Assembly (NCBI GenBank): GCA_021613535.1
Contig: CP075493.1
Coordinates: forward strand, 14,942,001-15,006,000
Origin: Adineta vaga
Lineage: Eukaryota > Animalia > Rotifera
DNA length: 64,000 nucleotides
Direction: 5' to 3'
A program made the translations under genes and the position numbers. The notes beneath the pieces are model-generated. The model was given only the letters and a program-made list of their open reading frames with translations, did not search any database and was not told the origin of the DNA. This document shows positions 1 to 52,558 of this stretch, piece after piece. The first letter of the stretch is position 1. Each line of letters opens with the position of its first letter.

Positions 1-548
1 TAGCTTTTACAAGAAGGAAAATTGTCTCAATTTCATTTCAGATTGTTGATATTCTTTTGTTGAAGTATACAGTATGTCTCATCACAATACCAAAGAAGTG
101 TAAATACACCAGGATTTTGATGTTTTAACTCAATACCATCGTTAGAATTGGATGATTAATTAATTAGAGATATTTGCAAACCTACACGATTTTCATCAGA
201 GGCAAAATATCTTGTCAAATTATTGTTTGAATCGAAATTAAAACGAAGGGTGTGGGAGTATGGATGTTTCTTCTTGCATTATTCAATACTAACTTATACA
301 CACTCTCAAAATGAATCGAGAAAGAAAATATTCGAATATGTTGATTAGATATCCTCATGCGTGAACCAATGAATGAAAGCTCGAACAATTAATAAATGTG
401 AAGCAATTGCAATCGTGAACTTTTCATACTTACCAGAAAATTTATTTGAAAAAAGAATTGGTTAGAATCAAAGTAAGACAAACTTCTTTTTAGTAAAGCA
501 GATATGGGTTTCTATATTGAAAAGAAAAGTTGAAGCAAAATATATCGT

Positions 549-11576: not shown

Positions 11577-11638
11577 ATCTTGAGAGTGGGTGTGGGTGAG
11601 TGTTTTTGTTAATCCACAATCATCATCACTCCCAAGAT
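11577..11638. repeat. Short palindromic element with telomere-like arms
   Basis: ATCTTGAGAGTGGGTGTGGGTG ... CATCATCACTCCCAAGAT inverted arms. Confidence 0.7.
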
Positions 11639-12521: not shown

Positions 12522-13049
12522 GGCACTAGGTCAATTCGTCGCATGGATAATTAGCCGGATATCCATTCAGTTCGCTGATAAATTCAATAAATTCAAATTC
12601 TTCATGCAACTGTTTATATGAAGAACATATTCTAATTGCCCTATAAACCATACTACTTATGGTGCTGATTTTATATGAGTGTGGTACGTATGATTTCCAT
12701 TTAGTTAATAATCCTGTATATGTTGGTTTTCTGTATATTGTTGTAGAGAATGAATTTAATATATGATATGAACTTCTATCAATGGTACAATGATAGAAAT
12801 CTTTGGTATTAGATGTTTTAATTTTCGATGAACAATTATACGTATTATATGTTCTGGTGCTATGGTTATTATTAAATTCAATAGATGAAATACTGGATAG
12901 TTTATTATTTGACAAAGTGTTAAATTTATTCAATGATTTTGTTTCAATGTGACTTATTGTTGACTCATTTCCATTTATGTTTGTGTTGTGTTGCTATATC
13001 AGTATTACTTGTATTTAAATCTGATAGCTTATTTGATCGATCAACTGTT

Positions 13050-13263
13050 CCCTGGTCGACAGATCCCGTCGGAACCAGAACATTCCGGCAATTTCATGGA
13101 AGCAGGATTCCGAACCAGATATTTTCGGATTTTTCCGCTCGCTTCTGACTAACTTTCAGTCGTTTTCAGACAATTCCGACTGGAACTGTCTGGAATATCC
13201 TCGGAAAGGAGTGATTTCCGACAGGTTCCGTGCGGATCCGTAGCCGGGAAACATCGTCCTGGG
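13050..13263. mobile_element. 214 bp MITE (CCC...GGG ends, 2-bp TT TSD; CMC/EnSpm-like) nested in the Penelope element
   Basis: TT|CCCTGGTCGA...TCGTCCTGGG|TT. GC-rich island with internal TTCCG/CGGAA repeats. Excision restores the Asn-rich frame (NA|TVDRSNKL). Confidence 0.8.
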
Positions 13264-14565
13264 TTGCATTTAATGGATTCTTATTTAAACTATTCATGGA
13301 TAAATTTAATGATTGATTTATATTATGGTTTGATTGAACTTTATTAGAAATATTATTGTTTATATGTAATATATTTAAATGATTAAATGGATTATTAGTC
13401 AGATCAAAAGTGACTGTATTATATGATTTGGATTCATGATTGATAGTTTTATCTAGCATAGAATTTGTATTGGTTGAGTTAATTCTCTTATCATTATCTA
13501 ATAATAATTCATTTTCTATTCTATTGTTTAGATTAGTTGTTCTATTAGTATTTGTTGGTATGATATCTATTCGACTATTTAAATCAATTAATGTTGTATC
13601 ATATGAACTATTATTTACAATGATATCTGTATGTGTTAATGTTAATGGTTGATTTATATAAACGTTGGATGTCAAATGATGAACATTAATGTCACTTGTA
13701 TTTGATGTGTTACAAAAGTTAGTTGTTCTATTGTTAGAATTATATCTGTATATATTATTTGATTTAGATTCAAGTAAAATTTTGGTATCTGGAGTAATGA
13801 TAAGATCCTTTGAATTAATATCAATATTCTTGTCAAAGTTAAAAATCAATTTCTTATCTGAATCTTTTATTAAATCTGAAAACAATTTTTTATTATTTTG
13901 TTTGATAGATGGATTGATATTATTGTTATTAGTCAAGATATTTGTTGCATTTTTATTGGTTGTGTTTGTTTGATCATTATGTGTATTATTATTATTATTA
14001 TTAGATTTATTATTTACACTCATTATTGATTTCTTTTTCGTATCTATTAATGATTTAATAAATGAATTGATCTTTTGATTATGATCTGTATTTGAAGATG
14101 TCGAACTATTTATATTATGATTTGAATTGTTGTTTAATTCATATTATTTCTATTAGAATTTTGTCGTTGATTATTATTGTTATTGTTGTTCTTAAAGTTT
14201 TTCTTTCTTCCATTATTATTAGATTAAATAGAAGAAGATCTAAATGATTTATCTTTATGTTCTTTTGTTTGTTCAACCTGATAAGAAGGTTTTTTTGTCA
14301 GTATATTTTAATCGTGTTGATGTGAAATAATTTAAATAATTAATAAATAAAGACAGAAGGTAGAATGGTAAAATGCTCATTTTTTTCAGGTTCGAATAAA
14401 AAAATCGATAGAAAGCTCCTAGACGAATGAAGTTAAAATTATCATTTGTGATATAAACTAAAGTCTTGTAAGGGTGTTTATAAAGTTTCTGATTGGCATA
14501 TAGAACAGTCGATTTTTTCTTTCTTTAATCCTTTCTCTTGCTGTCTTTATGAATCATTTAACATC

Positions 14566-15521: not shown

Positions 15522-17865
15522 ATGGGTGCAGATCATAGTAACCACGAGAACTGTAATGATCATAATGATAGTTCATCTTCTGAATCCAATGAAATCGAGA
15601 ACACAAATTCGATCAGTCAAACAACGGAAGAGAATTCTGTAGTAAAAAATGAGAAAGCACAATTCAATACGGCTGATGGTAAGTGTCCTACTTCTATTCT
15701 TCAATAGTAGAGTAATGATAGTCACTATCATTCATAGATTTAACACTCGAAAGCAAGTATGGTATGTTGGAGATATTGCTTAATGCTGCTGGCATAACCT
15801 TTCATATTCATCCGGCAAATATTAATCGACAAGTATTACCACTTGTTTACATTGAAGGTTCCGATGAGTATAAAATTATATGGTTGCATGATGAGAAACT
15901 TGATAAAGCAATAAAAGAGCAAACACAAACGGAATTATCGCTTCTTTTCAAACAAATATACATTTTTGATGATGTCGAAAGTTGTATCGATTTTCTTCTT
16001 TCACTTGATACAAATTCCGATCGTTTGTTTTTTATTTCAAATCTTGTCTATGATGACAAAGTAAGTTTCAAATGTTGAAATAATACTCATACCCGTATTA
16101 TTAATTCTTTATTCATAGTTTGTCGGCTCGATCTCCCTCTTAATTGATGATGAACATCCTATATCAATAATTCTACGACAATTCAAATACGAACATCATA
16201 TTCATGGTCATATATTAGATTTGCTGTCTATGAATTATATTCATTACTTAGGTGAAAAGTTTCTAAGTAGTAAAGTCGAAGATGAGAATAAGATAAATGT
16301 GACATTTGATACCAATCAAAGTTCTCACCAAACTATTTTTCTTAAATCACCATTACTATCATCGAAGATTACTTTGGATGTACTTATCAATGGTCTTACG
16401 TCAGTTTTTGATTCATTTACAGTTTTTGAAAACCAACTAGAATGTTTACAATATATGAATTCGATCAACCTAACAATTGTCAACGTATATCTGATCGTGT
16501 GCTGTTCGGAAGATCTTGCAAAGTTTCAAAACGTTAAGAATGTGAAGAAAATCTATCAAATCAATTCGGAAGAAATAGATAAATTTATACTTGGCATTCG
16601 TAATGATGTACGCGCTGAAACTGCTCTACCAGTTCGTCTTATCGAGAAATCTGTGCAGTATATCAACGACAAATACACTCCGTATATTTCTTTGATGGCG
16701 AATTTAGATTTATACTTGACTTTAACGCGTGATGTACAAGATCGAGAACGAATGAAACAAGAAATGATAACTGAATGTAAGCGTGTTTATCAAGATAATG
16801 AACAACAATTAAAATGTATTGAAGAATTTGATAGGAACTATGAGATACAAAAAGAAGGCAAAGCAATCTATTGGTATACACGTAAGTATAAAATTGTATA
16901 AGGATATTTTTACGTTGACAAGAAAATGACGTTTCGTACTATTTTTAATTAATTATATAATTTCTTCTTCAGGTGATTGCTTTCTTTATCGATTGATCAA
17001 TCGAGTCCTTCGTACATATGATCCAGATCTTATTTATCCTTATCGTTTCTTTATCAATGAACTCAACGATGAAATCACCAGTATAGATCGGCACTATTGT
17101 AATGAAGTTGATGATTTGATCGTTTACCGTGGACAAGGTTTGACTCATTCAGAACTTCACTATCTTCAATACAAAGTTGATCAACTCCTTGCATTATCTA
17201 GTTTTACGTCAACCACTATTGATCGAGAAATGGCATTAGGATATGCAATTAGTTCTGGAAATGATCAAGTTGTTCCAGCTTTATTCGAATTCCATCTTCA
17301 TCCGACGATAAATAATACACGTCCATATGCATATGTTGCTGAATATAGTGCTTTAACTAATGAGTATGAAGTCTTGCTTACATATGGCATTATTTTTCGT
17401 CTGGTTTCTATAACTTACGACTGTAAACAAAATGTTTGGATCATAGTAGGTCATCTTCTTCGCCTACAAAATCATGACATTAAGAATTTATTATCGAAAA
17501 GAAATGAAAATCAATTTAAATTGAATACTTTTGATGCAGACACTTGTCACTATCATAAAAAGAAACGTGAGCTGTCAACTAGTTGTCCACATAATACCGA
17601 CTTGCCTTCGTCGGAATCTATGCAATCAAAAGATTTACCATGCGTATTTGACTTTTTTGATAGTGATGGTACAGACGATGGCGTGCATCCCACATTATGT
17701 TTATTAGTACGTACAATCCTTCATTTATTTACTACTAGAAAGTCAACCGATGGTGAAAATAGTCTGACTCTAAAAGAAGAAATCAATATTACTAGAAATT
17801 ATTTAGATTACTTATTCAAATTATATGAACTTAGATGGTGTCGATCGTCTCTTTCACAAAATTAA
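15522..17865 (+). CDS. Multi-exon ADP-ribosyltransferase (R-S-E) domain protein
   Basis: MGADHS start; AIYWYT|RDCFLYRLINRVLRT; VYRGQ, SSFTSTT and NEYEVL motifs are intact; GT-AG introns link the ORFs at 15486, 15764, 16221 and 16993. Confidence 0.8.
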
Positions 17866-18592: not shown

Positions 18593-18879
18593 CGTGGGTG
18601 AGGGTGTGTGGGTGTGGGGTTTGAGGGGTGGATGATGATATGAGTGAGAGAAGAAGTATTAGTATCCCCATCCCCATCCCCATATCCTCAACTTCATCCC
18701 ACATTCTCACCTTTCCGTTTCACCCCCTCCCGTCACAAAAACCCGATGCTTCGAGCCTATCACATTGTCCAATCATCTTCGTAAGACACAACTTCACAAC
18801 CACCTGATGATACTTTTGAGCGAAGTTGAAACACGTTGTAATCTACTTGACTCACCTACACACACACATCCTCAAGATT
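18593..18879. repeat. ~285 bp telomere-like-arm element containing a hammerhead-like core, copy 1
   Basis: Left GTGGGTGAGGGTGTGTGGGTGTGGGG, right CACCTACACACACACATCCTCAAGAT, internal CCAATC and CTGATGA...GAAAC. Duplicated at 29030-29298. Confidence 0.7.
18798..18843 (+). ncRNA. Degenerate hammerhead ribozyme motif
   Basis: AACCAC-CTGATGA-T-ACTTT-TGAGC-GAAGT-T-GAAA-CACGTT-GTAATC. Core intact, 5-bp stem II, stem I imperfect. Confidence 0.5.
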
Positions 18880-20400: not shown

Positions 20401-20940
20401 TTTCTAATTCAAGAACAATTATACAACTAGAAAATAAAGTTCAAATTTTTTCTTTCCTTTATTAATAAAAACTATTGTAACAAACATCATAGAGAAATTT
20501 TGTTGTTCATAGGAATACACGTATTTATCAAATAATTATATGTATACGTCACTTCGACATCTCTCTCTCTCTTTCTGACCTTTTTGATGAAATACAGATG
20601 AAAAGCTTTCATAATTAAAATTTATTTTTATATTAAATCAAGCCATTAATATAATTGAAGTGTTTCAATACTTCAAAGAAGAAAATACTTCGTTGGAACG
20701 TATAAATTAATGCCCATCTAAAAGATAATTATAAACTGTTAAAGATATTTATTAATCGACATTCTTTCCTTGTGATAATTATTCAAAATTTTATACTTAT
20801 ATAACTGAAAAAGAAAAATCGAGGGTGTGGGTGAGAGTTTTTTTCTAATCCACAATCATCATCCCTCCCAATATCAAACTTTTCATTTCAAATAGATAAA
20901 TCAATTTCTAAAATAACAACAAAGTTATGAATATGTTTGT

Positions 20941-28261: not shown

Positions 28262-29029
28262 ATGAAAATAACGACGTATATTTCTTTTTTATTAGAAAAT
28301 TTTATTAATATAAAATACTGGTTCAATATTATTTTGGTCTTATAGAATATTCTGACACAGGAAAAGAGTATTAAGTCAGTAGGAAATTAAAATGTCAGCA
28401 TCGAGTTTATCTTTAAAAAAAGGAACAAAAATTAAAAGCTATGAAAATGTATGAAAAAAATTTCAATCGTTAAAGAAATTCATTTTCAATATAGATTTTA
28501 TTATATTCACTGATAAAGAGAATAATATGAACGATTATTCAAAAATTTTACTTTATTCTAACAACTAATTTATTCTCTCTAAAGTTAAAGTAACAAACAA
28601 ATATAAATAAAATACTTGAAAAAGAATAACGAAAATAATCTCTTTTTCTTTTTGAAATCAAAAGCAATATGATAAACTCAAAGATGAGATGAAAAGAGAA
28701 ACGAGTATCATCTTATCATAATGATGAATACATATAGAATATTTCTTCATATATATAAACAAACAACTTTCATATGACATTTGGTTACATAGAAATTGTT
28801 TTTTCTTTAAATCTGTGTAAAAGTACAAACGAGTTGATTTAATCTCATAAGAAAAAAGAGATTAGAAGATAAGATTCTATAAGGACAAATAAATCAATAA
28901 GTTTTTTTCAGAATAAAATTCAAAACGATTGAACTACAGATGTAGAAAATATGAAAAATGTTATTTTCAATTACTAATTATCTAATAGAGCATAAGCATA
29001 TTATCAACAATCGCATCAAATTTTTATTG

Positions 29030-29298
29030 CGGGTGTGCGTGGGAGTGTGGTGTTTGAGGGTGGATGATGATATGAGTGAGAGAAGAAGTATTAGTATCCC
29101 CATCCCCATATCCTCAACTTCATCCCACATTCTCACCTTTCCGTTTCACCCCCTCCCGTCACAAAAACCCGATGCTTCGAGCCTATCACATTGTCCAATC
29201 ATCTTCGTAAGACACAACTTCACAACCACCTGATGATACTTTTGAGCGAAGTTGAAACACGTTGTAATTTGCTTGACTCACCTACACACCCTCAAGAT
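29030..29298. repeat. Telomere-like-arm/hammerhead element, copy 2
   Basis: Near-identical to 18593-18879. Hammerhead-like core at 29224-29269; right end CACCTACACACCCTCAAGAT. Confidence 0.7.
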
Positions 29299-32923: not shown

Positions 32924-34997
32924 ATGGCTGAATCTGCCGAGACAAATATTCGAAATGAAAATCAATTCGAACTACAAGATATGACGATGACAGATGTTCA
33001 ACAACAATTCGTTACCTACACAACGTTGAAGCAAAAAAAGTGAATATTATTCTATAATTATATTGATCACACAGCTGACATGTTTATCTACATGTTTAGA
33101 TCACCAAGAACACGTTTTTCGTTTATATTTCAAAGGAAAATCTTATGGACATTGTTGTCAGTATTTCTGATTGTTAGTGTTTCCACTGCAGTGTGGATCT
33201 CTCGTCATACGATGAGTCAGAAGGAAAATAATATGATGGTCATACAAGAACAAGGTAAAATAGATCGATACATATAATGTGATAATTTGAATGAAAAAGA
33301 ATCGATAGAGATGGATGATGAACTGCCTCAATTACGATCATATAGATACAATGATGTGAGTATATATTCAACTTAGTGATATATCATGTTTATGTATTGG
33401 AATAGAAATCTGAAGAAGATGATGATATTGGTTATTTGAATGTTTTTATTCGTAAAGATGCTGATGACAGAAGTCGTCGACCGGAAAGATTTAGGTTTCC
33501 TGCTGCTCGTTATGATCGTCGACGAATTCGTATGCTATGAACTTGATTAGAATCATTTTATACAGATCATATCTTCTTTTTCTTCTTCTTTTATAGCTGT
33601 CAATGGTCCTTTCTTTCATTTCATGCCACGAATTCCAATCTTTGCTGATCGACTTACAAAACAAACACTCATTTTTTCAACATCAGGAGGCGGTACTTAC
33701 TTCATTTTTTAGAAAAATGAATTCACTCTCCTTATTCACATTTGTAGTGTACATCCTACCGCCATTGGTGAATAACTATGGTAAACTCTTCTCAGTTGCA
33801 GAACTCATAGCTTCAGGTTACGCTAGTCTGGTTAGCAGTGGTGTCTCACCAACTGGTCCTATCAATATGGTTCCGTTTTTTCAACCAACACCATGTTCGT
33901 ATTATTTCTTTTCGAAATCTTCTAAAATTGAATTTCATTTTGTTATTTGATAGTAATTGGTCCAAATATTCCAGTATTACGTCCTCGTCATGGTGGCTTC
34001 GTTGGTGGTATTCGTACGAAACTGGAATCTATATCCATTCCTAAAGATTATTACAGACCATCAAATCTATATTCTACAATTGACGAAATGAACGACGACG
34101 AAAGTGAATATGAGGATGACAACGATCACTATCGGCCATCTCATTCATACAATCGACCTACACGAAAACCAAGTATATTATATCAAATTCAATTCTTATA
34201 TTTCATATTTCATTTTAGGCACAACTACATCATATCCTAATAATATTGATCAAATTCAGAAGAAATTAAAAAAATCTACAGAAAATATTGTGCAAACATT
34301 CAGACAAGGTATCTGTGCAGAAATGATTTTGAATTCCACTGTACGTGATCAATATATATCAAAGAATTTAATTGGTCGTGTTCTACCTCTCGGAACATTT
34401 TCATCAACAGAATTGGCAGTAGAATATTTATATGGAATTCTATGTACTATACCAAATCTACCACCACGAACAAATTTATTTGATACAGTAGATATAATAC
34501 ATTTGACATATGATGCCAAATACTACCGAGTATCATTTAAAATCCAAGTCAATTTTATATCGAAAAAAAGACTGTTTTTTTTCGGAATATTTGCTTTCGC
34601 GAAAGATATGAAATTATGTGGATATGAAGCTGTGATACAAAATGCTGGTTTAACATTCGATTTTCCATTGGAACAGAGAACGTTTGTTATTTCAAGTCTA
34701 TGTCAAGGAGTTCAAACAATTTGTCCAGTTGGTTCATCAAATGAACAATATGCAAGTGTAAGTGAATGTATTTCATTTCTTAGTGAACCACAAACGCCAT
34801 TTGGAACATATGATCGAGGTGATCAAAATAATGTTATTTGTCGAACAATTCATCTTTCACTGGCATCAATTGCACCTGATATTCACTGTCCACATGTGGG
34901 GAAAACAGGTGGTGGTGCTTGTACAAACAAAACACCAGAATCCTATTTTGAAGGAACATCTGATTTTGTCAGTTGTGCATATCAGTATCAAAAATGA
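32924..34997 (+). CDS. Multi-exon type II membrane protein with C-terminal Cys-rich domain (CRTIH...HCPHVGKTGGGAC)
   Basis: ATG 32924; TM ILWTLLSVFLIVSVSTAVWI; several short exons; long last exon ~34220-34997. The C-terminal motif resembles fungal/myxobacterial secreted proteins (from recall). Confidence 0.65.
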
Positions 34998-35085
34998 GAA
35001 TTTGAATGAACATTCCAAGAATCTTTTTCTATAACATTCATTATTTTGAGGGAATACGATTGTTGATATTTCAATAAAATGGACA

Positions 35086-35140
35086 TTCTTTGAGAGTGGG
35101 ATTGATGCGTAAATATGCCGTACCTACACTCCTCAAGAAT
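35086..35140. repeat. Short palindromic element with telomere-like arms
   Basis: ATTCTTTGAGAGTGGG ... CCTACACTCCTCAAGAAT, ~90 bp after the stop codon at 34997. Confidence 0.65.
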
Positions 35141-35486
35141 CATTCCATGAAAAGTAAGTGAAAAAAAGCCCATGAGAGAGACGCATTCATTAATTAATCA
35201 TATCTACTTCTTTTGTTTCTCAAGAACGAGAAAAAGAAATTTTCCTAGCATAAATGATGATATATGTCATATTCTATTTCTATCGTCTGTTCAATCCATA
35301 TCTCATATTTTCAAGATCACAAATCATTATGCACGCAAAACAGATCTTGCGAAATGATGTATACTATTTTCATGGTTTCAGAAATAGAATAAAACGCGTG
35401 ATTTTACGTTTGATTTATTTCCTTAATGGAAAAAGAAAAACATACAATGATGGATGATGCTTCTTTTGTTCGTTTAAAACGTCCGA

Positions 35487-36500
35487 TCATGTTCTAGCTG
35501 TTCTACCACCTTGTGTACGTGTTATTCCTGTTGTTGTTGGATTGACTTGTCGTGTCTGTTGCCAACAAAATAACATCATTCGGAATTTCTTTCGGAGCTC
35601 AGGTAATGATAAACAACATACGAATGGAAAAACGAATACAACGTAATAATACAGAAATCCTGTATATACTAATGCAACACCTGCAATATCCGATGGTAAA
35701 CCATATTGATAGCCAAAAATGACTAAAACCCAAGGTGCATTGAATACAATATAAATAGTTGATATTGATAATAACTGTATAATCATTTTTCGATGTTTTC
35801 GCCAATTGATACTTTGTTGTAATCGACGTTTTTGCCAGATTGAACGTACTAACAATCCCATGCTGAAGAATACAATAACTAACGTTGGTACAACTTGATG
35901 AAAGTTAAGATCCCACATTCCCAATACTGTATGATCGAACACACAAGGTATATGAATACCACCAGCTAAAAATGGTTCAAATGAGCTTGTACAAAATTGA
36001 ACAAAATGAACGATAGCAAAGTAGATGAGATAGTAAACAATGATGATGATGACTGGTAAATAATGAACAAGAAATCGTTTTTTTCTAGTTGAAACCCATT
36101 GATCATGAAAGATTAGTATATGTCTTTCAATTGTTGCCCAAGCAAATAATTCAATTTGTAATGAATAAAATGAATAGTTGATATATGTCCAAAAGTAATA
36201 GAAAATATTTGATCTAAACAAAGGTGCACCATTGTAATCATTGTAAAGAATCCATGGAATATTTGTTGTTTCATAGAAGAGACCAAGAAAAAGTAAAACA
36301 ATGATGACATGATTATTTAATGCATGGTAAAGTGTTCGATCAGAAAGAAGAAAAAACAGATCGAACAAAGTGCAAACAAGAGATAATATGTTCGATATAA
36401 GATAAGCCAGAAATCGAACTGAATGTACCATAGACTGAATTGACTGAGCAGCATCAATTGGTATTGTTGTATTTAAATTCGTAGTGATATTTGAAAGCAT
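35487..36500 (-). CDS. Class A GPCR, intronless
   Basis: 337 aa with seven hydrophobic helices, WATIERH (DRY-like), FPFVCCLSLPELR. Confidence 0.85.
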   Translation of the reverse strand: MLSNITTNLNTTIPIDAAQSIQSMVHSVRFLAYLISNILSLVCTLFDLFFLLSDRTLYHALNNHVIIVLLFLGLFYETTNIPWILYNDYNGAPLFRSNIFYYFWTYINYSFYSLQIELFAWATIERHILIFHDQWVSTRKKRFLVHYLPVIIIIVYYLIYFAIVHFVQFCTSSFEPFLAGGIHIPCVFDHTVLGMWDLNFHQVVPTLVIVFFSMGLLVRSIWQKRRLQQSINWRKHRKMIIQLLSISTIYIVFNAPWVLVIFGYQYGLPSDIAGVALVYTGFLYYYVVFVFPFVCCLSLPELRKKFRMMLFCWQQTRQVNPTTTGITRTQGGRTART

Positions 36501-37149
36501 TCTTTTTAAGACGAGTGAAGAGTTTGAGTATTTTAATAATGAGAATTACAAATGAACTTCTATGGTGATGGAAAAAAAAGAATTAATAAAAGAAAAATAT
36601 CACATCAAGATGGTATATAATAGTTTTTTTTCATTTTTCAACATTTGATTGGTTTACTTTGTATATGGAGGCGGAAGCTCAGCCGCCTCTGTCATCATGA
36701 CAGACATGTAGATTTCAGATTTTTAAACACTGTCAGTATTGAACAGAAGCTCTTAGCTCTTTTCTAATCTAAAATCTTATTACGTACCGAAGTATAAAAG
36801 CTACATTGGAAAAAAGATATTCATCTCACTTGTTTCATTCGTAAATCTGTGAACGTTGTCGATCCGGAACAAGATTACTGAATTATCAAATGTATGTCCT
36901 AAAAAGAAAAATGTTCACTCCTTAATTGTTTTTTTTTCTTCAGCAAATCGAAATAGAGTGTGAGTGTACTTTTCTCAAATGCATCTGATAATTCAACACA
37001 ACAACATGGAGCAAATTTTTAGCGTTTCAATGCTATTATATCTCGTCCTTCATCCCACAGTTAGTATTAAATGACAGGACTAGACTCTTCGTTTTTGTGT
37101 GTTTGTAACTTATTTTCGTTATATTATTCGAGATTATGCAATAAACGTT

Positions 37150-37512
37150 TTCGATAATCTTATTCTCTTGTCACTAAAACAACATCCATGACAAGAAATA
37201 CCAAGCCATTCGCATTCAACTGGTAATTTTAATCCACCTTGTAACTAAAATTGAATAGCTTCAGCATTTTTTTCGTAAATATCACCTACACCATCATGAC
37301 TGATTATTTTCTCATCGGCTGATCGAATAACTATAGAGTTGGAATACCATCCACAATGAGTTTTTCAATCTGAAAATATATACGAAGGATTAAAACAATT
37401 GATAGTTCGATAATTACTTAAATCACTTGTTAGTATTCGACGATATGATTCGTCATATTCATTGTTAGGATTCATTTCGAGTAATTTGATATCTTTTAGA
37501 TCAACCACCATT
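37150..37512 (-). pseudogene. Relic of a nucleoredoxin/tryparedoxin-like gene
   Basis: Broken frames give VDGIPTL..IRSADEKIISHDGVGDIYEKNAEAIQF*...EWLG.(S)CHGC, with stops and frameshifts. Confidence 0.4.
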
Positions 37513-37703
37513 TTCTGTATAAACCGTAATGAAAACGTGAAATATCAGTTATTTTATATAGAATTTCATGCAAAACGAAAAAAAAACAAACAAACAACGC
37601 TTACATATGAAGAATGAGTCATAATGAATGCGTATTTTTCCTTGTCAAAAATGAATCATGTCATGACTGTATAGACCATTTCAAAATGAGATATGATTTA
37701 TTA

Positions 37704-37730
37704 AATAATAATAATAATAATAATAATAAT
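37704..37730. repeat. (AAT)n microsatellite
   Basis: About 9 AAT units directly downstream of the C1A stop. Confidence 0.9.
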
Positions 37731-37740
37731 ATCAATATTA

Positions 37741-38674
37741 CTATACAACTAACTGAAGTACGCTAGGTAATTTATTTGATCGTGGTATTATTTGTAAAAT
37801 AGTCCATAAATTATCTTTATAATTAACACGCCGACGATTATATATAAAAGTATATGGCATATAGAAATAACCTCTATCACCCTAAAAAAATGACTTCATA
37901 GATAAAGCAGAACTATATAGAATTTCATTTACCCAATTTTCTCCCCAAGAATTCCGTACGATGAAATGTTGAGCCGATCGATCATAACCGACAATAACAA
38001 CAGTATGAAAAGCATTTCTATCAATAAATCGATCATGAAGAAGATGCTCTACTAAAAATCCATTATTCATTTGAATATTAATTGCAGTATCATTATCAAG
38101 TATAATATCAATAGGTACTGGTATACCATTATGTAAACATGTTTCAATAGCGAGAATATCAATTGGAACACGAAGTAAAATAACTGTAGAATTCATTGCT
38201 TCTTCATATGCATCATGGGATGGTTGATGATTTAGAAACCGTTTACTGTATGGCCAACGATATTCTTCACAAACTCCATAGTTTCGAATACTTAATGCAA
38301 TATCTCTTTGATTAACACCTAAATCTTTCATCTTAAATCCATATTGTGTTCGTATTTGACCATTATAATTAATGAATAAACGAGATACATCAATATGATA
38401 ACCCGTTGTACGTTTAATTAAATATTCATAGATACCTGCAAATGCATTAGCACAACTGAAAAGAAAAAGATCAAATTATTGTAGATTATTAAATAAATAT
38501 TTACCAAGTGTTCATATCTTGTTGATATTCAACTGGTGTCATAAATGGTCGTAGATCAACTTTGGGTAATAGCGATGGATTTGGAAATGAATAAAGTCGT
38601 TGTAAATCACGATGTTCATCTCGTATATTGGTAAAATATTCATTTGTATACGTCAGATAATCATTCCATATCAT
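37741..38674 (-). CDS. Papain-family (C1A) cysteine peptidase, bacterial type, 3 exons
   Basis: LPKVDLR, QQDMNTC|CANA (Gln/Cys), SRLFINYN, FHTVVIVGYD (His), RNSWG (Asn), W|GDRGYFYMPY. No signal peptide or I29 prodomain. Confidence 0.85.
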
Positions 38675-39361
38675 TATTTTCCTATGTTTAAGATTGATGA
38701 AAAAAATAAGAAGGTATCTATCTCTTTATATTGTCCTTCAAAGTGAGAAAATAGATGTTATAGTCATGATTACCTTTTTTTTTATTGAATTTTTGCAATA
38801 TAAAAATCAGAGAGTGAATATGATGCACGTTATATGATGCAATTACATAAATTAATTACCCACTATTTTATGACATATTTTTCTTCTCTTCAACTTCTAA
38901 TTGAAACATACACACACACACATGCAAAGGTGAACAAACTGATTTCTATGATTTCATGATTTCTATGAATTCAAATGATTTCATGATTTGAAATAAGTTT
39001 GTTTCATCTTGCATAGATACAATATTTTAGCTATTGTATTAAACATACATGTATAGTAGATGAACAGGGACACTTATTTATTGTTCATAAAGGCCGTTTT
39101 CTTATTGTCATATTGAAATGTTAAGAAGAAGATTTCTTGAGGGTGAGTGTGAATACTTCCCTTTATCTCGCACTCTATTTTTGCTAGATTATCTAAAACT
39201 TAATTTTCAAGCTTCTTTACATTATTTTGAATTCACGTTGGTAACAAAAATGCTCGTTTTATCGTTCTATGTCTGTCGTCTATAGCTTTTGCACATCATT
39301 GATCGATATCCGGTCAAGCATAAATCGCGAAATACTTCGAAAAAACTCAATGTTTCGAACA

Positions 39362-39424
39362 TTCTGAGAGTGGATGAGGATTTGTACGTGAAGCAGAAGA
39401 GCACCCACACCCACCCCTCAAGAT
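39362..39424. repeat. Short palindromic element with telomere-like arms
   Basis: TTCTGAGAGTGGATGAGG ... CACCCACACCCACCCCTCAAGAT; a half-site TTCTTGAGGGTGAGTGTG also occurs at 39134. Confidence 0.7.
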
Positions 39425-39642
39425 AATAAAGTAAGTTCTTCTCTGAAATAATTCATTTTTTTTATTTCCATGTCGACTTTCTTCCATAGACCCTGAAACC
39501 ATTAGATATACGACGGAATCAAGTAGGAAAAACATAGTGTATGTTAAGTGAGAAAGAAATTTATTGACTTAGAATTCAGACTATTATAAAAATTCAATTT
39601 TTTTTTATTTCACGTAAACGAAATAGTTGAGTTTGAGTTGCT

Positions 39643-40833
39643 TCAGTGCCCGTAAATTGTGTGACAACAGCTACACGATGATTTCGAAGAAGAATATTTA
39701 TTACATTGAAAAATTCTTGACGAAATAATCGACTTGATAAACAATGAATATAGAAGGAAGCCTAAAATTAAGCATATTTTCGAAGAAAAACAAATCTTTT
39801 TGTGTTAAACTTACTGCATAATTGATTGAAGCAACTAAAACAGCAAAATTATTGAATTGAAATAATTGTTCTAATGTCAATCTAAATCTTAAAACATAAG
39901 TCATAAGAATATAGAAGAGACTTAACGGAATTTGTGTAATAAAAAAAAGAAAAATACTCGATATCATAATTAATAAGATTTGTCGATCGAGAAAAATGCG
40001 ACGTCCACGTGTTAGTTCTGATTTTTGTTTTTGTTGACGACGAAGTTCAATAAACATGTTTATACTAAATCCGAGAAAAAGTATTGTTGGCAAAACTATT
40101 TGAAGAATCGTTATTAAAATTGGCCAAATCTTTTAAAAACATAATTGAGAAATATTTGATAAATTAATATGAAAAAACTTACAGTCATATAAAAGTATTG
40201 ATATGTTGGACTTGATGTTAGACTAGCAGAACATACAGTTGCACCACTAACAACATTTATGAATGGTAATGCTAAGTGACAATTGAGCATAGCAGAAATA
40301 ATCACAATGACACATGTACCAATAGAAACTCTTTTTCGTGTACAAAGTTGTTTAACTCGAAAGGGAAATCGAACACGAATCCATCGATCAATTGTTATTG
40401 TTAATAAAAGCCATGCTGTACAACACATACAAAAATATTGAATAAATGAATAAGCACGGCACAATTGATTCATCAGATTTGTATTTGTTGTTGGAATGTT
40501 AAAACCAAGAAAAATAAAAGTATAAAAACATGTTAATAAATAGATGAAATCGGATATTGTCATATAAATGAATAAACTACTTGTAGATACTTTACGAAGA
40601 GTTTGACGATGAAAGATGGTAATACTTATTGAATGACCAAAAAAACCAAAAACAAAAAGAATTAAATAACCATACAGAACAACATTTCTTTGAAGAGGTG
40701 TTATGGCAGATGAACCAAATCCTGGTGGAGGACCCATTCCACCACCACTACCACCACCAGGAGGAGGAGGACGAGGACTCATCCAATTATCACTACCTGG
40801 AGAAACAGTGCTGTTGTTGATATCGCTATCCAT
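39643..40833 (-). CDS. Class A GPCR with Pro/Gly-rich N-terminus (3 exons)
   Basis: TIDRW; TM helices; introns after FYMT and NYA; last exon ASFYIHCLSSRLFRQEF. Confidence 0.85.
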
Positions 40834-40899
40834 TTATACGTGCAAAGTTGAAAGAAGTGAAGAATATTTACCATATATATATATGTGATGATTATTCAA

Positions 40900-40942
40900 T
40901 GTCGTAAAACTGTCGTAAAACTGTCGTAAAACTGTCGTAAAC
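40900..40942. repeat. Tandem 11-mer TGTCGTAAAAC x~4
   Basis: Direct inspection; ~70 bp upstream of the GPCR ATG. Confidence 0.9.
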
Positions 40943-42334
40943 AGATGTATGTATGCATTTGTATTTGATAATCATCATATCAATTGTAAAAAGGTTAATT
41001 AGTTGTTCAAAAGCACACACAAATCATATAAAACCAGAGAAATATGCGAAAAAAAAACCTTATGACTTCTATCGACCAACGAAAATGAAAAAAAGCAATA
41101 GACTTATGCAGGTTAGATAACTTTTAAAAACTTTTGTTAATTAATCTAACATACGTTTATCGATCATAATATATTGTCTTTTTTTCCAGATATTCATCAA
41201 TTGATCATTATGAACGATAATGGAAATATTTGTATCGAAATTTTCAAGATCTTATTTACATAACAATATATTTCTCTTTATCTGATCAGATGAGATTCTT
41301 TTTGACGGATAAGTAAAAAGAATCTTGCCTGAGAATCAAGAACAAAAAGAACCTGGAAATAATAGGCCAAGATCGTCGATTAGTAAAGAGTTAAGTTTTT
41401 GACATTTTTACCTTAAATGAATTGTGACAGATTTTTATTAAAATAAAGTGACTATTCTCTTTTCTTATGACAAATCAAATACAGACAAAATATATAATTG
41501 TTTTTTTTTTCAAATTCGAATCTCTATGCTTGTCCTTTGTATAACAAGAAATAACAAATAACTTTCTTCGAATCTACTAGAAATAATTTTAGGTTCGATA
41601 TTAATTTTCAAAAAGGTATGGGTGAAGAGAAGAGTATTACCTACACTCTCACGATATTTTATTTGACATTCTTGTTTTCGCTATGCGTGAATGAAAAATT
41701 ACATTATTCTTTATCATATTAGAAGCTTATTAGTAATGATTTCTTTCATGTGGTACGTTAATTTATGGTCAAATAAATTTATTTATCTCTCTTTGTTGTT
41801 ATCTAGATATTGGTGATAATATCGACACACCTCTGTTAAATGACAATGACGATGAAAAGGCATCATATATAAAAACATTTGCATCTGAAGGAACAGTTTC
41901 TGATAAATAGCAGTGATAATATTTTTGGCATTATAATTGACAATTATACTAATTTTTTAATCATCTATAATAATGTAGTAAAACATTTTTTTTATTCGCT
42001 ACAATTAATAAATTTGTTATACAAAGTGTGTTTTTCTATGAAATCCAATCTTAATGTATATTCAGTAATCATCTATATAGTTACCTTTAAAAGATAAATG
42101 AGAATTGTGCGTTTCGATTTTATTCTTATACTTACACACTCGCTATCTCAAATGATAAGCACATAATAAAAGAAGCGTGTAAGTTCCACACATTTAAGAA
42201 CTCCAGAAAGAAGTATGTGAGTTTAAAAGTAAATTGAAGATTTAAAAATACTTTCATATGAATAAAGAGAATCGGAGCTTTTTAAGAAATATTTATTTTT
42301 TTTATTGTAAAATAGAATTTAATTATTGAATTTA

Positions 42335-42914
42335 TTGTGTCATCAATTGTTGTTCACGATTCGCACAATACGCAACATAGTGAAGCCAACGACATATATG
42401 TGTGCATGCCATCGATACTTGTTTAACACGTTCTATTTAACATTCATCTCAAGCTAGAATCGATGTAAGTCGAGATAATTGTTCTTTATTAACTTTGCTT
42501 ATATCAAAACATAATAGCATATTCAAAAATTGATCATTCATTAATTTCTTGGCATCTGCCCATTCGAATCTGGTTTTTGTAGGTTCAAATAGAACTGCAA
42601 TACCTTCGAAAACCAATTGACAAACTAGAGGTGGCCTGGAAAATGATTTTAGCTCTACTATTGAGCTCTTCTTAATCTGAGACAAGTGTTCCTTTGCTTC
42701 TAAATACAAGATGTATGTATATAGTTAAAGATTCATATAAAAGTCTAAAGATATTGAAATATTTACGTTGTAAAGAATCGGATGTTATTTCTTCGGTAGC
42801 GTTTTTTGTTGTCTTTTTCTAAATACCATGTACGAATGTATAATAAAAAGAAAAATAATATAAACCTCCGTTTAAATACAAACAAAAAGAAAGAATTTCA
42901 AACGATGACGCCAT
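42335..42914 (-). pseudogene. Stand-alone dynein heavy-chain stalk/microtubule-binding-domain-like mini-gene with two in-frame stops
   Basis: IVELKSFSRPP..CQLVFEGIAVLF...WADAKKLM..QFL..L..FD...ILA*DEC*IERVKQVSMACTHICRWL resembles the dynein MTBD. No flanking AAA exons. The 5' end is inferred. Confidence 0.65.
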
Positions 42915-43484
42915 ATGGATGGTTGTGATTGATGTTGAATGAATCAGGCAAAGAAAATTTCGTTAATCTTACAAAAGTATGATTGTATATTCTTCAGTTA
43001 ACATATATGACAGACAAGTAAAAAATCATCGTATAGACATTCGCTATTGTCTATTACAATAGATTATCGAGTAAAAAAATAACAGATATAAAGTTAGATC
43101 GATGTCATTTCTATATTCATCTCGTAACTATACATTCAAGATTACTGCAAAAGGTCTCATCTAAAACTTCTATACTTCTTTGTCTGAAATGCATCTATTT
43201 ATGTTTTAAATAGAATAAGATGTCATCAAAAGTTTTGATAAAAGCATTGAGAAATTAATTAAAAGTGTCTATTTTGTTCAGATACTTCAATAAGAAATCC
43301 TTTTATTAAACACAAATCATACCTGCATCTTATCATATTATGTATGATTTAATGTATAGAAAAATATTTATTTGATTGGATTTTTTTGTTCTTTGATGTT
43401 ATAGGAATATACGATCTGAATAGAAAACGTACTGAAGAAAATACCCTCCCACTCACACCCTCAAGATCAACTCCATGTTGACGA

Positions 43485-43793
43485 TTAGCAAACAGCTCGC
43501 TTTTCTGCTTCATCACCTTTATACTGAAAACAGCTGCCACATGTTCGATCCCAATAACATTCGACGTCGACAGTACATTGTTGCCAAATTGATCGCTTTC
43601 CAGTAATTCCATACATTTGAGTGTAACACTATCAATCACCGCCATTTGCACGGGCTGCATCAGCATAAGCCCAGCAGTAACCCTTGTAACAGCCACAACG
43701 TCCTCCGTCGCAATCACCTGCAGCTACTTTATCTATCATCATCCCAAAGATGATGAACGCACTGATAGTAACGAAAAGAGTTAATTTGAACAT
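43485..43793 (-). pseudogene. Small secreted Cys-rich protein (Tha p 2-like pattern) interrupted by tandem TGA TAG
   Basis: MFKLTLFVTISAFIIFGMMIDKVAA-GDCDGGRCGCYKGYCWAY...GGD**CYTQ...WQQCTVDVECYWDRTCGSC...AVC*. Otherwise the frame is clean; TATA-like sequence ~43886. Confidence 0.75.
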
Positions 43794-44743
43794 AGTGATT
43801 GTTAACTTAAAATGAAAGGAAAATATTTAATTGAAAGAACTTCGCATATTATAATCGAATGAGTGATGATAATATCATTTTGTGTATATAAACGGCATAG
43901 AGCACAAAGAGATACGAATGATTGGTCGAGAGTCATACATCTAGGTCAATTATCTCTCTCCCATTGTTTACCTTCGTTCAATATAGGATGATCAACTGTG
44001 TGGCCGGATAAAAAAGTTGAAGATCAGAAAGGGCGATTTTTACAACTTAGAGGAAACTATGTTTACATGCTGGTGCTCAATACTTTATTTTTAAACGTCA
44101 GCCATTTCACTGTAATCGCGACGAGTATCTATGAATGAATAGCTACTCTTTTGCGGAAAGCTCCTTATTTTCATTAGTATTCGAGATCATGATATTGATG
44201 TATTTGCTGATGATGTTATTTCAGTCTTTTCTTCTCCAGTATCATCTTCACTCATATTTCATGTTGTTGATTAGGTCATTTTATTTAATTGTGCAATCTA
44301 CGATAAGATCGAAACAAGAGAATTATCAAAACTTCAGTTCACTAACTGACTGTGAAACTCAGAAATATGTTCAGATTTCAAAAACTAACTTTGCTTACTT
44401 ATCAGAAGATATGACCTTCTTGTTCGCAATATAAATATACATTATTATTCAACAGGATATTAAAATGAACAAAAACCAGCACATTATATAGAAGGATACA
44501 CGTGTGTGAGTCTTTCGATTGTCGATACACTCAACACGAATATTAACAGAAGAAAAAATGAGAAAATCACGTCACACAATTCATCATATAATTAAAGTTG
44601 TGTAATACAATTATTTACAGTGTTATGTTCTGATTCGAAGTTTACTATGCAGGATTAACATGATCAATCATTGACAAAAAAGGACAGATATTATTCGTTT
44701 TAAGTTTGCTTATTGGAATTTAAAATCTTTCTAATTGATATAT

Positions 44744-47239
44744 TTATGTTACAGTAGAATGCCGTGGAACTTTGGTGACAATAACTCCACTTTTAACATG
44801 TGGTTTTTGTTCTTTCGTAACTGATGTACTTCTTAACTTGTTTGGAATTGATGATTTTCTTTGAATTTTATCATTGTTTTGTTGTACAAGTTCGATTTCA
44901 TTCGCTTGAATTATTGATATTGATGTAGATCGTGATTTTTCGTTCGAAATTGTCGATAATCTCTTAATTCTTTCTTCTCCTTTATTCGTTCCAACAATAG
45001 TAGTTATCGAATGTGCATCGGTTTCTGTTTTGATATTGTTATTCATGGATTCAACTGGTTTTTCATTCTTATTAATTCTTATAATATTCACTGCTTTACT
45101 TTGTTTAGTTAAAGATAATCGTGAATTGATATTCTGTTCAGAATTTCTCATAGTAGTGAGAGAGTTTGAAGGATTTGCATTGAATGAATGTAAAGGTATA
45201 TCAGATGGTGATGTACGTTCTATATTATCATTTGTAGTTAATTGATTATAGTTAAATTGTTTCTTTCGTATTTTTTCAACTCCAAGTATTTGATTAAGAG
45301 GATGATTATTATCAGACATATTTCGTGGAATTCTTGGTAAAATTGTATTCTGTTGATATTCATCTTTAGTACTTCTTTGTCGACGACGTCTTCCTAATGG
45401 AACCCTATTATAAGAGTATAAATGAGATTTTCTAATGATATTTAGAGGAAGAAAAAGAAAAAGACTTACCAATAGAACCAGTACAAACAGCAACAACAAG
45501 AACAACAAAGAGCGAGAAGTAGAGCCAATAAAGATAAACCCACAATTAATGGCCAATCTATGAAGCGTTTTAAAGATATAATAAACATAATAGAGAGAAA
45601 AAAGATTTTATTTACTTGTTTCTTTTGTTGTTTCTTTTGTTTTTCTAAAGAAATAAAACTTATAAGATTTCTATTTGATAGATTAATTACGTACGTAGAT
45701 TTTGCGCATGACGAAACTGACGATATAACATCGAATGTAACACAATATTGTTGAGATTGTATTTGTTCACTAAATAATTTCAAATAAAAAGGATTAATTA
45801 AAAAACAATAAAGATTTACTCTGAATAGGCCAGTGTACAGAATTGTTGAGATCCAAGTTGATTTATTTGAGGTTGCCAAGTAAATGTAACATAAGATATT
45901 GATGAATTTATTGATGAAGTCACAAGACTACTTATATTCATACCAGAAATTATACTTGTTGCAACAATTGTATCAATATTTGAGATAATTGGATCACATA
46001 AAGTCATTGCAGATATATTAAATGTTATTAAAACACCGACTTGTACATCCAAACAATGATCAAGAGAAAGAATAATTGGTGCTAATCCGCATGGTGGTTG
46101 AGCCATAACGTAAATTAAAAACTGAACAGGTACTGAACTCATTGAAACATTACTGTTACTATCAATAAAATCTTCAACCTGTAATAAATAAAAAAGTTCA
46201 ATTATTCAATTTTGATGTTAAGTAAAATAAATGTTTTCATTTTATTTACTTGAAGAGCAATTCCATACCAAGTATCAGGTATAAGACCAGTAAATGATAT
46301 TGTACATCCAGTTAGTGTTGTTGTATTAGGTACACTATTCGGAAAACAAATTCCACCACATTCATCAATAGGTTGACGATTTGGATATGATATTGTCGTT
46401 TTTAATGTACCTGGTATTTCAGTTGTCGTAGTTCCAATCGGACAACCCCCACTTATAGAACATTTTCTACCACTACAAATCGTACCTGCACATCCTGAAC
46501 ATGAACAATAACAATCATATGCACATGTACTTCCACAATTTGAACAATAACTTCGTCTTTTTTTTCTAATATGAATCATTTGAGAATGTTCTTCTTCATT
46601 CGATCGTTTTCGTCTTCGATAACCTGGTGTAATACGTGACCATCTACAACGTATATCATCACCTGAATTGGCATCAGAAACCGGAATTGTTATTAATGTT
46701 GTTTGATTAACAATTGCATATTGTGGTGAAATAATATTTGCAACAGGTGGTGTATTAATAAATCCATCAGGTCTCATTCGAAGATCAATTGAACAAACAA
46801 TTGACCATTCAAGTCCACTTTCTGCAGGATCATTTAATGCAATCCATGCAGTGCCAACATATGCAAGATAAAAATGTGCATATGCAGTTAAATTAATATT
46901 TACTGATCGTTGACTTGTCATCATACCTAATGATGTACTAAAACTTTGACAATCAGTTAAAATATCAATTGGATTTGCTGAATAACCACCATCTGTTGAA
47001 CAATCAGTAACACATGTTAAATTTGTATTTTCATTACTTCGACCATTTGTTGTTATAGGAACATCATTAGCACAAGATATTGTTGGATAAGTCCATGAAT
47101 ATGTTTGAATAATGTTTATAGAAACTATACTTGAATTAATCGTAGGATTAATTGGTTCCCATCGAATTGTACCACCATTGAAATGTCGACCAAGAACAAA
47201 ATTCGAAGAAAAAAATAAGAAGAAAAAGAAATTTATCAT
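44744..47239 (-). CDS. Single-pass secreted/surface protein (HFNGGTI N-terminus, Cys-rich region, TM, Cys string, cytoplasmic tail)
   Basis: Signal MINFFFFLFFSSNFVLG; RRRKR/RKKRR furin-like sites; exons in ORFs 46202-47239, 45816-46142 and 45466-45879 (TM WPLIVGLSLLALLLAL, CCSCCCCLY), last exon to 44744. Confidence 0.75.
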
Positions 47240-48709
47240 TGTCTTTGATTGTCGACAAATGAAAATTTCAAAGAAAAGTGTTCTATAGTATCGATTGTTA
47301 ACGCATAAAACTGTCGAAATTTCATTCTTATTTTATAACAACGCAATAATGATTTTGTAGTCAATCGTCTTTTTTTCTTTTTCTTGTTTTTTAATTATGA
47401 AAATCAAATAATACAAAAAAAGAAACAAATGAAATTAGTAGTTTTCTTTTGTAAACCTTGTTATTTCTATTGAAAATATTAGACAATAAAAAAAAGTACA
47501 CATATTTTAATTTAAATACCTTCTTCTGAATTAAATCGCTCATTCTAAATCGTTTAATGGGAGAAATCAGTAGATTTAATCACGAACGAAATATTTAAGT
47601 GAGATTATTCAAAATGAAAGTCAATAGAGGGTGTTTTTTTCTCTTATTTTCATTTTCTAAAGATAGAACTGCTGTTTCTATTTATATTATTGTAATCAAG
47701 TTCGATTGATAGATGTTTTTAAAGAAATGGAAAGTTTACTTGCACCTTTTGTCTAGAAAACTAAAGAGATCGTTTCAATTAGTGAAATAACACCTCGATT
47801 AATTATTATAGTTCATTGATCTGTTACAGAACATATGATTGGATGATTATGTCTTTTCAATGAATTTATCCGACATATAAAGAAAAAATTTGTAGATTGT
47901 TCTACTCTATGCTATTCAGATTGCAAATAATCTCGTTTTGTCAAATGATTTATCAGTGGTATTCGTAGAACGAAATGCATATTGGAGAAAATTATCCTCA
48001 AATATCAAACTGATAATGGACCACATACACATGTCGATGATTCAGATCATCTAATCTTTGAAGTTTTTCTAGTTGTGATCGTTATTTATTGATTATGAAA
48101 GAAAGAAAGAGCTTGTATTATGCATACATCTAAAAACTGTCTTAATTACACTTTTTCGACAGTTATCGAATGTCGAATACGTAATGTTCATTTTTTAGAT
48201 ATTTTAGGTGACTGACAACTTCTCGGAACAAAAGAGAACGACTAAGGAATTTTACAAAATCAACCGATTGTTATAATTTTTCAAATTATATCGATAGAGT
48301 TTTGCCCATCTTAGATCCGTACATTTCGCTCAGATTAAATAGTCATCGATAAACTTCTGAAAAACTTATGGGTGACGTGGGTATGAGCAACGGTTAAACA
48401 TCACACCCACATCCAGCGCGATTATTTTAGAAATCGTCCAAATCGTCTTGATTTCTATAATATGGGCACAACTACACTTACCCATATATCTTATGATTTC
48501 GACATTTCTTTTTTCTGTTCTCCGTCAAAAGTTTTATTTATTTATTTTTCGAAATTCGCTTTCCTATTGGATCGTGTCCTTCACTTTTTCGTGCAAAAAA
48601 GAAATTGCACAATCACGACGAATGCTGAATGTATACTGTCAATAAATCTTCATCACGTGTTTATATAAATACATTCTTTTCTAGGGAGATTTGTATCGCT
48701 CAAAAGAAA

Positions 48710-52267: not shown

Positions 52268-52458
52268 TCTTTTTTTGTATGTACAAAGCAAAATGTCTAA
52301 TTCAATACATTCTTTATTCTTTCCTATGATGTTAAAAGATAAGGGTCGTTATTTATTCTACTCTTATCTCTATGAAGATGAATGAAAGATTTTTCATCTT
52401 TTCAAATAGTTCTTTATCGCATTGTTGATGAATTGAATAGCACAAAAGAAAATGAAAG

Positions 52459-52510
52459 TTGAGGGTGTGGGTGTGAGTGACAGAAGATAGGAATACTCAT
52501 ACGCGCACCC
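52459..52510. repeat. Telomere-like-arm element
   Basis: TTGAGGGTGTGGGTGTGAGT ... ACTCATACGCGCACCC. Confidence 0.65.
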
Positions 52511-52558
52511 ATCGTGGACGTATGTGTATTCGTAATAAATGGAACTTTAACCCAAAGT

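What the first reader, a model, noticed from the sequence alone, without database searches (positions are those of the whole stretch)
18593..18879. Telomere-repeat-armed ~285 bp cassette enclosing a hammerhead ribozyme core (retrozyme/Athena-pLTR-like)
Seen: G-rich telomere-like left arm, C-rich tract, CCAATC box, then AACCAC-CTGATGA-T-ACTTT(TGAGC)GAAGT-T-GAAA-CACGTT-GTAAT, then the family right arm. A second copy lies at 29030-29298, where two A->G changes (GTAATT->GTGGTT) would restore a 6-bp stem I with AACCAC. In both copies the left arm marks where GPCR-unit duplication homology starts. Known: Penelope-like elements, including telomere-associated Athena/Terminon elements of bdelloids, carry minimal hammerheads in pLTRs and abut telomeric repeats. 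Inference: a non-coding, ribozyme-bearing non-autonomous element mobilised by PLE RT. It may link the short palindromic family to retrotransposition and to duplication breakpoints.
Basis: partly seen in the sequence, partly recalled or inferred. Interest (0 to 1): 0.75.

Follow-up and report, generated by a model that had tools for sequence, protein, structure and literature searches.

The report
Decayed telomeric retroelement tail with hammerhead
Beside a receptor gene in a bdelloid rotifer lies a worn, predicted-inactive self-cutting (hammerhead) RNA motif followed by telomere-matching letters; it is likely the leftover tail of a known telomere-attaching jumping gene that was copied onto a DNA break, and probably not a new mobile ribozyme cassette.

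Summary
Rfam misses it. Three AT-rich metagenome contigs carry a better-formed hammerhead followed by the same CACACCCTCAAGAT end; one of them is shown to be bdelloid. Helix II covaries between two of them and the window copy. This layout matches the published 3' end of Athena/Terminon elements. The window copy is decayed: helix I has 2 contiguous pairs, helix III is not palindromic, and G10.1-C11.1 is absent. The 285 bp are not one mobile unit. I found no independent genomic copy of the hammerhead part in four laid runs and no target-site duplication, and another form lacks the middle 100 bp. The 'arms' read as telomere-repeat caps joined head to head. Retrozyme features are not met. The breakpoint link rests on one junction of about six. 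One detail may be new: loop II is complementary to the terminal CUCAAG in 3 of 4 hammerhead-tail modules, a predicted pseudoknot. I could not read the primary Terminon paper to check it. Verdict: new member of a known kind, modest interest.

The parts
18594..18631 (+). G-strand telomere-type tract (four TG[AT]GGG hexamers); read as the cap on the left broken end; the duplication junction with 29028 lies in it
   Evidence: sequence; hexamer count; junction; bdelloid repeat TGTGGG in PMC7943196. Cap reading inferred
18632..18663 (.). filler between the facing telomere tracts, with GATGATGAT and GAGAAGAAG motifs like those in other short two-armed elements
18664..18691 (+).
   Evidence: table 5c; polarity fits PMC6431247. 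Inferred
18697..18796 (.). 100-bp middle bounded by 8-bp direct repeats (18689-18696, 18789-18796); absent from a short form in runs X1, X6, X13; contains the chance-level CCAATC
18798..18843 (+). decayed type I minimal hammerhead: helix I 5' strand 18798-18803, core 18804-18810, helix II 18812-18826, GAAA 18828-18831, predicted cleavage site after 18837
18815..18820 (+). helix/loop II hexamer complementary to 18871-18876 (predicted pseudoknot)
18851..18878 (+). telomere-complementary tail with the fixed end CCTCAAGAT, joined to host DNA about 400 bp past the stop of a convergent GPCR gene
29028..29298 (+). second copy, duplicated with the GPCR unit (core 29230, tail end 29298); best hit of a model built without the window

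Best explanation
The stretch is a decayed, predicted-inactive hammerhead plus telomere-complementary tail that is likely the 3' end of an Athena/Terminon-type Penelope-like retroelement, probably copied onto a broken DNA end beside a GPCR gene and later duplicated with it. Shown: the motif, its relatives in other AT-rich contigs (one shown bdelloid), its decay, the polarity of the tracts and the duplication. Inferred steps: (1) a break about 400 bp past the GPCR stop left a 3' end on the minus strand that began with ATCTTGAGGGTGTG, either as a telomerase seed or as the first letters copied from the element RNA. (2) The element's reverse transcriptase, supplied in trans, copied the RNA through the hammerhead and stopped after about 90-190 nt. 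(3) That end was capped with telomere repeats (C-strand tract 18664-18691). (4) The other broken end was capped too (18594-18631), and the two capped ends were joined head to head, which put the piece inside the chromosome. (5) The GPCR unit was later duplicated, with one junction in the left tract. In the intact parent the hammerhead would cleave as a dimer through a palindromic helix III; this copy has lost those features.
For: Published layout: hammerhead, then (ACACCC)n/(TCACCC)n at the 3' end; copies 5'-truncated by telomeric repeats (PMC6431247 passages; PMC8557442). The plus strand has this polarity: C-tract, body, hammerhead, C-tail, host. Host is bdelloid. Of 52 metagenome hits, I judged 10 bdelloid-like by GC and context. 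Three of the 10 (L008, L016, L037) have a structured hammerhead before the same end, and L037 encodes a protein whose named relatives are all bdelloid. Helix II: 3 of 4 pairs change on both sides across L016, L037 and the 29230 copy (3 sequences). A covariance model from L016 and L037 ranks the two window copies first and second in 64 kb (30.7 and 22.5 bits). Of 24 prokaryote/virus loci forced to hold core, GAAA and tail, 23 score 5 or less or lack a core on my additive score. L008 also has U.U at the helix II base and a second hammerhead with the palindrome CACGTG. Telomeric repeats and Athena fragments at deletion breakpoints are reported in A. vaga (PMC13564844).
Against: No Athena RT or other element body was seen next to any hammerhead-tail module (one search tested only with the PLE proteins), so family membership rests on the end structure. 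The metagenome relatives were fetched with a pattern taken from the cassette, which inflates the model score. The 18804 copy (22.5 bits) is not clearly above chance loci forced to hold the tail (up to 21.7 bits, different filter setting). One control (L068, A/T runs) scored 8 on my additive score against 7 for the cassette. No empty site was found. L016 and L037 are 74% identical, so they are not independent.
Confidence: 0.72

Rival explanations
1. The tail and its fixed AAGAT end come wholly from telomerase (template plus 3'-flank) added at the break. The hammerhead RNA then annealed only through a short ACACCC/TCACCC stretch, and the loop II match is chance. This is a variant of the best explanation and is not exclusive of it.
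For: The same end closes unrelated sequences: 6 window sites within 1 mismatch against 0.13 in shuffles, and 21 within 2 against 2.9. 7 of 10 bdelloid-like loci have it without a hammerhead. The inner cap also ends in CCTCAA. L009 and L010 share AGCCA beyond it. Vertebrate TERC-ITS are a precedent (PMC8537989).
Against: Loop II is complementary to CUCAAG in L016, L037 and the window, with two one-sided changes that keep G.U pairs; shuffle p about 0.015, 0.07 and 0.02.
Confidence: 0.45
2. The 285 bp are a mobile non-autonomous element or retrozyme with terminal arms, mobilised as a unit.
For: Inverted G and C tracts bound the stretch. L008 shows that non-coding hammerhead-tail sequence can sit in a 1170-bp repeat. 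Penelope pLTRs can move host genes in A. vaga (PMC3846280).
Against: Only this locus's contigs were laid on 18789-18878 in 4 runs at 80% likeness. Flanks show no duplication. A form without the middle 100 bp shares the right flank. No tandem monomers; no unusual folding.
Confidence: 0.1
3. A chance hammerhead-like string inside a telomere-repeat scar or MITE arm; TGATGAT is a motif of the short family anyway.
For: TGATGAT/TGAGGAT occurs in several short elements. Rfam gives no hit. Helices I and III are broken.
Against: 0 of 20000 cassette shuffles meet the descriptor. Better-formed relatives exist with the same spacing to the tail, and helix II covaries.
Confidence: 0.1

Closest known systems
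3' terminal module of Athena / Terminon endonuclease-deficient Penelope-like elements of bdelloids (as described in PMC6431247, PMC8557442, PMC5537684, passages read; the primary papers Arkhipova 2017 and Gladyshev 2007 were not held)
   Same: Type I hammerhead followed closely by reverse-complement telomeric repeats; 5' truncation capped by telomeric repeats; bdelloid host.
   Different: No RT or other ORF attached; internal, gene-flanking position; hammerhead decayed; a fixed CUCAAGAU end that I could not check against the primary figures.
Minimal hammerheads of metazoan PLE pLTRs (PMC4209133; parts 1-2 of 4 and supplement passages read)
   Same: CUGANGAH core with the extra base, GAAA, NUH, short helix I, dimer-type helix III in the relatives.
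   Different: Window copy lacks G10.1-C11.1 and a palindromic helix III; no pLTR pair around an ORF.
Non-LTR retrozymes of animals (PMC7229834, passages read)
   Same: Small, non-coding, type I hammerhead; size within 170-400 nt.
   Different: Not a tandem of monomers, hammerhead minimal and broken, no strong self-pairing, no dispersed copies seen.
Head-to-head interstitial telomeric sequences and TERC-ITS (PMC8537989; abstract and section 3.2 read)
   Same: Facing telomere tracts with filler at an internal site; no target-site duplication seen.
   Different: Here one side carries a hammerhead module; no empty orthologous site was found and the bdelloid telomerase RNA was not available to compare.

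Membership tests
Athena/Terminon 3' end | type I hammerhead core | tested here: met
   decayed in helices I and III
Athena/Terminon 3' end | reverse-complement telomeric repeats just downstream of the hammerhead | tested here: met
   18851-18878 and 29268-29298; same end in L008, L016, L037
Athena/Terminon 3' end | 5' truncation capped by telomeric repeats in the same polarity | tested here: met
   C-tract upstream of the hammerhead, cleanest in the short form
Athena/Terminon 3' end | co-oriented Athena-clade RT or other ORFs upstream | tested here: inconclusive
   none in the cassette, as expected for a short truncated copy; upstream DNA of the relatives is short or non-coding; no Athena query was available
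Athena/Terminon 3' end | sequence match to named Athena/Terminon families | not testable with these tools
   no genome held; primary papers not held
PLE minimal hammerhead | G10.1-C11.1 pair | tested here: not met
   U.U at the helix II base; met in L016 and L037; L008's tail-side hammerhead also has U.U
PLE minimal hammerhead | palindromic helix III for dimer folding | tested here: not met
   CACG; self-duplex -4.1 kcal/mol against -8.6 to -12.9 for L037 and both L008 motifs; L016 is also weak at -2.3
PLE minimal hammerhead | helix I of 3-5 pairs | tested here: not met
   2 contiguous pairs, then 2 mismatches
PLE minimal hammerhead | self-cleavage | not testable with these tools
   bench assay needed
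non-LTR retrozyme | tandem 170-400 nt monomers, each with a hammerhead | tested here: not met
   copies are 10.4 kb apart inside a gene duplication
non-LTR retrozyme | highly self-paired RNA | tested here: not met
   z -0.4
non-LTR retrozyme | abundant circular RNA | not testable with these tools
   only contigs were available
Penelope pLTR-mediated gene mobilisation | host gene framed by two pLTRs and a target-site duplication | tested here: not met
   cassette on one side of the GPCR unit only; 2 of 4 units lack it
MITE | terminal inverted repeats with a fixed target-site duplication | tested here: not met
   no flanking direct repeat seen at 5 two-armed elements inspected by eye; no empty site available

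The most novel reading that the evidence does not exclude
The fixed CUCAAGAU end belongs to the element RNA and pairs with loop II as a pseudoknot. After self-cleavage the roughly 35-nt 3' piece stays docked on the ribozyme as a template-plus-pseudoknot RNA. The Athena reverse transcriptase, the closest relative of telomerase, uses it like a telomerase RNA to seed telomere-type tracts on internal breaks. This would produce the many short ATCTTGAGGGTGTG-ended scars (roughly one per 4 kb in this window) and nucleate gene-family duplications. A sister reading is that the same end, CACCCACACCCUCAAGAU(AGCCA), is the template region of the bdelloid telomerase RNA, which my one search did not find described.
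Probability: 0.15. Interest if true: 0.72.

Novelty: new member of a known kind. Interest (0 to 1): 0.3.

Why it matters
As a relic it is ordinary, but it is a compact record of how a bdelloid likely mends breaks: retroelement-end capture, telomere capping and rejoining inside an expanding GPCR cluster. The more useful by-product is a fixed 14-nt terminus shared between this genome and bdelloid-like metagenome contigs. It gives a search key either for a loop II pseudoknot in Athena/Terminon hammerheads or for the bdelloid telomerase RNA template. Both can be tested directly.

Tried and rejected
No whole genome is held, so no genome-wide BLAST was possible. Rfam gave no hammerhead in the window or in 10 loci, including the well-formed relatives, so it is insensitive to this type. 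Monomer folding does not recover the hammerhead fold, and none of the 6 cores folds better than shuffles. IMG/VR scans (3 and 4 loci) and the GTDB scan (20 loci) gave chance hits, which I used as controls. RNA: no RNA holder is on record. X12 and X13 (RNA is only a guess) hold pieces at depth 2-3, which is no evidence on expression. Laying 33500-48900 to find empty sites of the short elements gave truncated tables and no answer. An alternative cleavage register (after 18840) leaves helix I unpaired and was rejected. The 92-aa frame over copy 2 (28955-29233) has no Pfam match. The arm count was an undercount from my regex flag and is replaced. The Atlas gave no usable hit for the L037 protein and only leads under 0.9 for the PLE fragment. 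tblastx of 10 loci against the window gave nothing. A full-text search for the terminus returned 12 papers, 11 listed, none on rotifers by title; figures are not searchable. File 1 of the PMC4209133 supplement was not searchable, and its figure S5 may show the rotifer motif.

Full report
Setting. The window is about 30% GC and holds four partly duplicated GPCR units between 9888 and 30947. The receptor exon matches rotifer 7tm_1 clusters. A fragment at 12547-12963 matches RT-bearing proteins of Adineta ricciae and Rotaria. The host is therefore a bdelloid rotifer.

Observation. The motif and both copies are as described. The core pattern has 2 hits and 0 in 100 shuffles. A descriptor tuned afterwards to the motif gives 16 hits in 300 shuffled windows and 0 in 20000 shuffled cassettes. 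Rfam finds nothing here or in better-formed relatives. CCAATC is common (32 sites).

Variants in public runs. I laid 4 of 24 listed runs. Over the hammerhead and tail, only contigs of this locus or its duplicate were laid at 80% likeness. A second call showed that pieces under 90% alike and joints with 20-letter sides are picked up, so close copies elsewhere would probably have shown; distant ones would not. The first 84 letters, including most of the left tract, were skipped as repeats. X1, X6 and X13 hold a short form that joins 18661 to 18789 through 22 other letters, a clean ACACCC-type tract. It lacks the 100 bp between two 8-bp direct repeats. Contig depths in X1 (83 plus 58 against 144) suggest it is the other allele, though the tool warns that depth is no copy number. 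One X1 contig joins window 34294-34321 to 18894, 15 bp right of the tail; this is a single-contig hint.

Relatives. A metagenome scan for the tail with TGA[AGT]GAT 25-55 nt upstream gave 52 loci. I judged 10 bdelloid-like from GC of 0.27-0.40 and telomere-type context. Only L037 was confirmed by protein: 19 relatives, all named ones bdelloid, 48% identity to the best Adineta vaga hit. Three of the 10 carry a structured hammerhead before the same end: L016 (helix I 5 pairs, helix II 4), L037 (palindromic helix III) and L008. L008 has a palindromic helix III and U.U at the helix II base like the window, plus a second hammerhead 184 nt upstream with CACGTG. None of the other 42 had a structured core before the tail. 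Of 24 GTDB and IMG/VR loci forced to hold core, GAAA and tail, 23 scored 5 or less or had no core, and one scored 8 on A/T runs against 7 for the cassette. A covariance model from L016 and L037 ranks 29222-29298 (30.7 bits) and 18796-18878 (22.5 bits) first and second in the window. Chance loci with the forced tail reach 21.7 bits and L008 only 20.7, so only the 29230 copy stands clear. On three aligned sequences, 3 of 4 helix II pairs change on both sides. In that alignment the window row is out of register for helices I and III.

State of the ribozyme. Against the consensus in the PMC4209133 supplement, the window copy keeps the core and the extra base. It lacks G10.1-C11.1, has a non-palindromic helix III and has 2 contiguous helix I pairs. 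Even intact minimal hammerheads cleave weakly and only as dimers. I predict this copy is inactive; that was not tested.

Loop II and the tail. L016, L037 and the window have a loop II hexamer complementary to the terminal CUCAAG. All 18 cells pair, with two one-sided G.U changes. Shuffle p values are about 0.015, 0.07 and 0.02; L008 fails (longest run 3, p 0.98). Pseudoknots between helix I and II regions are common in hammerheads and raise the rate (PMC3088659 passages). L016 and L037 are 74% identical, so this is a lead from few sequences.

The arms. The 12-mer end occurs 6 times in the window within 1 mismatch (0.13 expected) and 21 times within 2 (2.9 expected). It closes unrelated sequences, often with a facing G tract and no flanking duplication. 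The cassette reads as a composite: a left G tract and an inner C tract facing each other, then a truncated body, the hammerhead and the tail. This is the polarity described for 5'-truncated, telomere-capped Terminon ends (PMC6431247 passages). Telomeric repeats and Athena fragments at break sites are reported in A. vaga (PMC13564844 passages).

Breakpoints. Of about six junctions among the GPCR units, one lies in the cassette's left tract. The tails are 200 bp or more from the other junctions, apart from one 2-mismatch site 33 bp from 21803 that may be chance. In 2 of the 10 bdelloid-like loci the tail abuts a repeat boundary: a 98% inverted copy starts 3 bp after it in L010, and a 1170-bp repeat restarts at it in L008. 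This fits break repair but is not a test.

Literature seen. PMC4209133: parts 1-2 of 4 and supplement passages. PMC3846280: parts 1-3 of 5. PMC8537989: abstract and section 3.2. Passages only: PMC7229834, PMC6431247, PMC7943196, PMC13564844, PMC5537684, PMC8557442, PMC3088659. Arkhipova 2017 and Gladyshev 2007 were not held. Searches were. None showed the fixed end, the pseudoknot or a bdelloid telomerase RNA, but the primary figures may. Hammerhead position numbering is recalled. Earlier AI notes on other rotifer windows reach the same family call; my reading was written before them, and they are not independent support.

Verdict. The motif is real, decayed and of a published kind. The mobile-cassette and retrozyme readings are not supported. 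Interest 0.3; the open lead is where the fixed CUCAAGAU end comes from.

Noticed in passing
window 12528-14300, minus strand: Broken Penelope-like RT fragment with an asparagine-rich insert, as described for A. vaga Penelope families. It is cut at about 12528, where homology between GPCR units 1 and 2 ends.
   Followed up: partly
window 13040-13260: GC-rich insert with inverted ends inside the Penelope-like fragment; looks like a MITE.
   Followed up: no
window 61397-61475, minus strand: Third hit of model R1 (21.8 bits): core-like start, 4-pair helix II and a tail-like end, but no GAAA; possibly an older relic.
   Followed up: partly
window 240-313, 11577-11638, 20815-20875, 35090-35143, 39364-39424, 52456-52515 (two-armed); 26834, 39134, 43467 (single ends): Short telomere-type elements sharing the CACCCTCAAGAT-like end. 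The 39364 element shares TCACGTACAA with L010 and GGATTTGTRCGTGA with L023, which could come from one conserved RNA; no statistics were run.
   Followed up: partly
L008:13-1678: Repeat with period 1170 bp holding a tRNA-like segment (Rfam tRNA, 36 bits), a duplicated hammerhead 3' half, two hammerheads and the tail.
   Followed up: partly
L010:1383-1707: A 98% inverted repeat with a telomere-type insert ending in the tail at its centre; looks like a fusion of two capped ends.
   Followed up: partly
window 34294-34321 joined to 18894: One contig of run X1 joins these places, suggesting a further rearrangement 15 bp from the tail.
   Followed up: partly
window 15722-17865: Multi-exon gene with a weak ADP-ribosyltransferase match, below Pfam's cut-off, converging on the cassette from the left.
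   Followed up: no
L048:385, minus strand: A hammerhead-like motif (helix II 6 pairs, helix I 4) without the tail in an unrelated locus.
   Followed up: no
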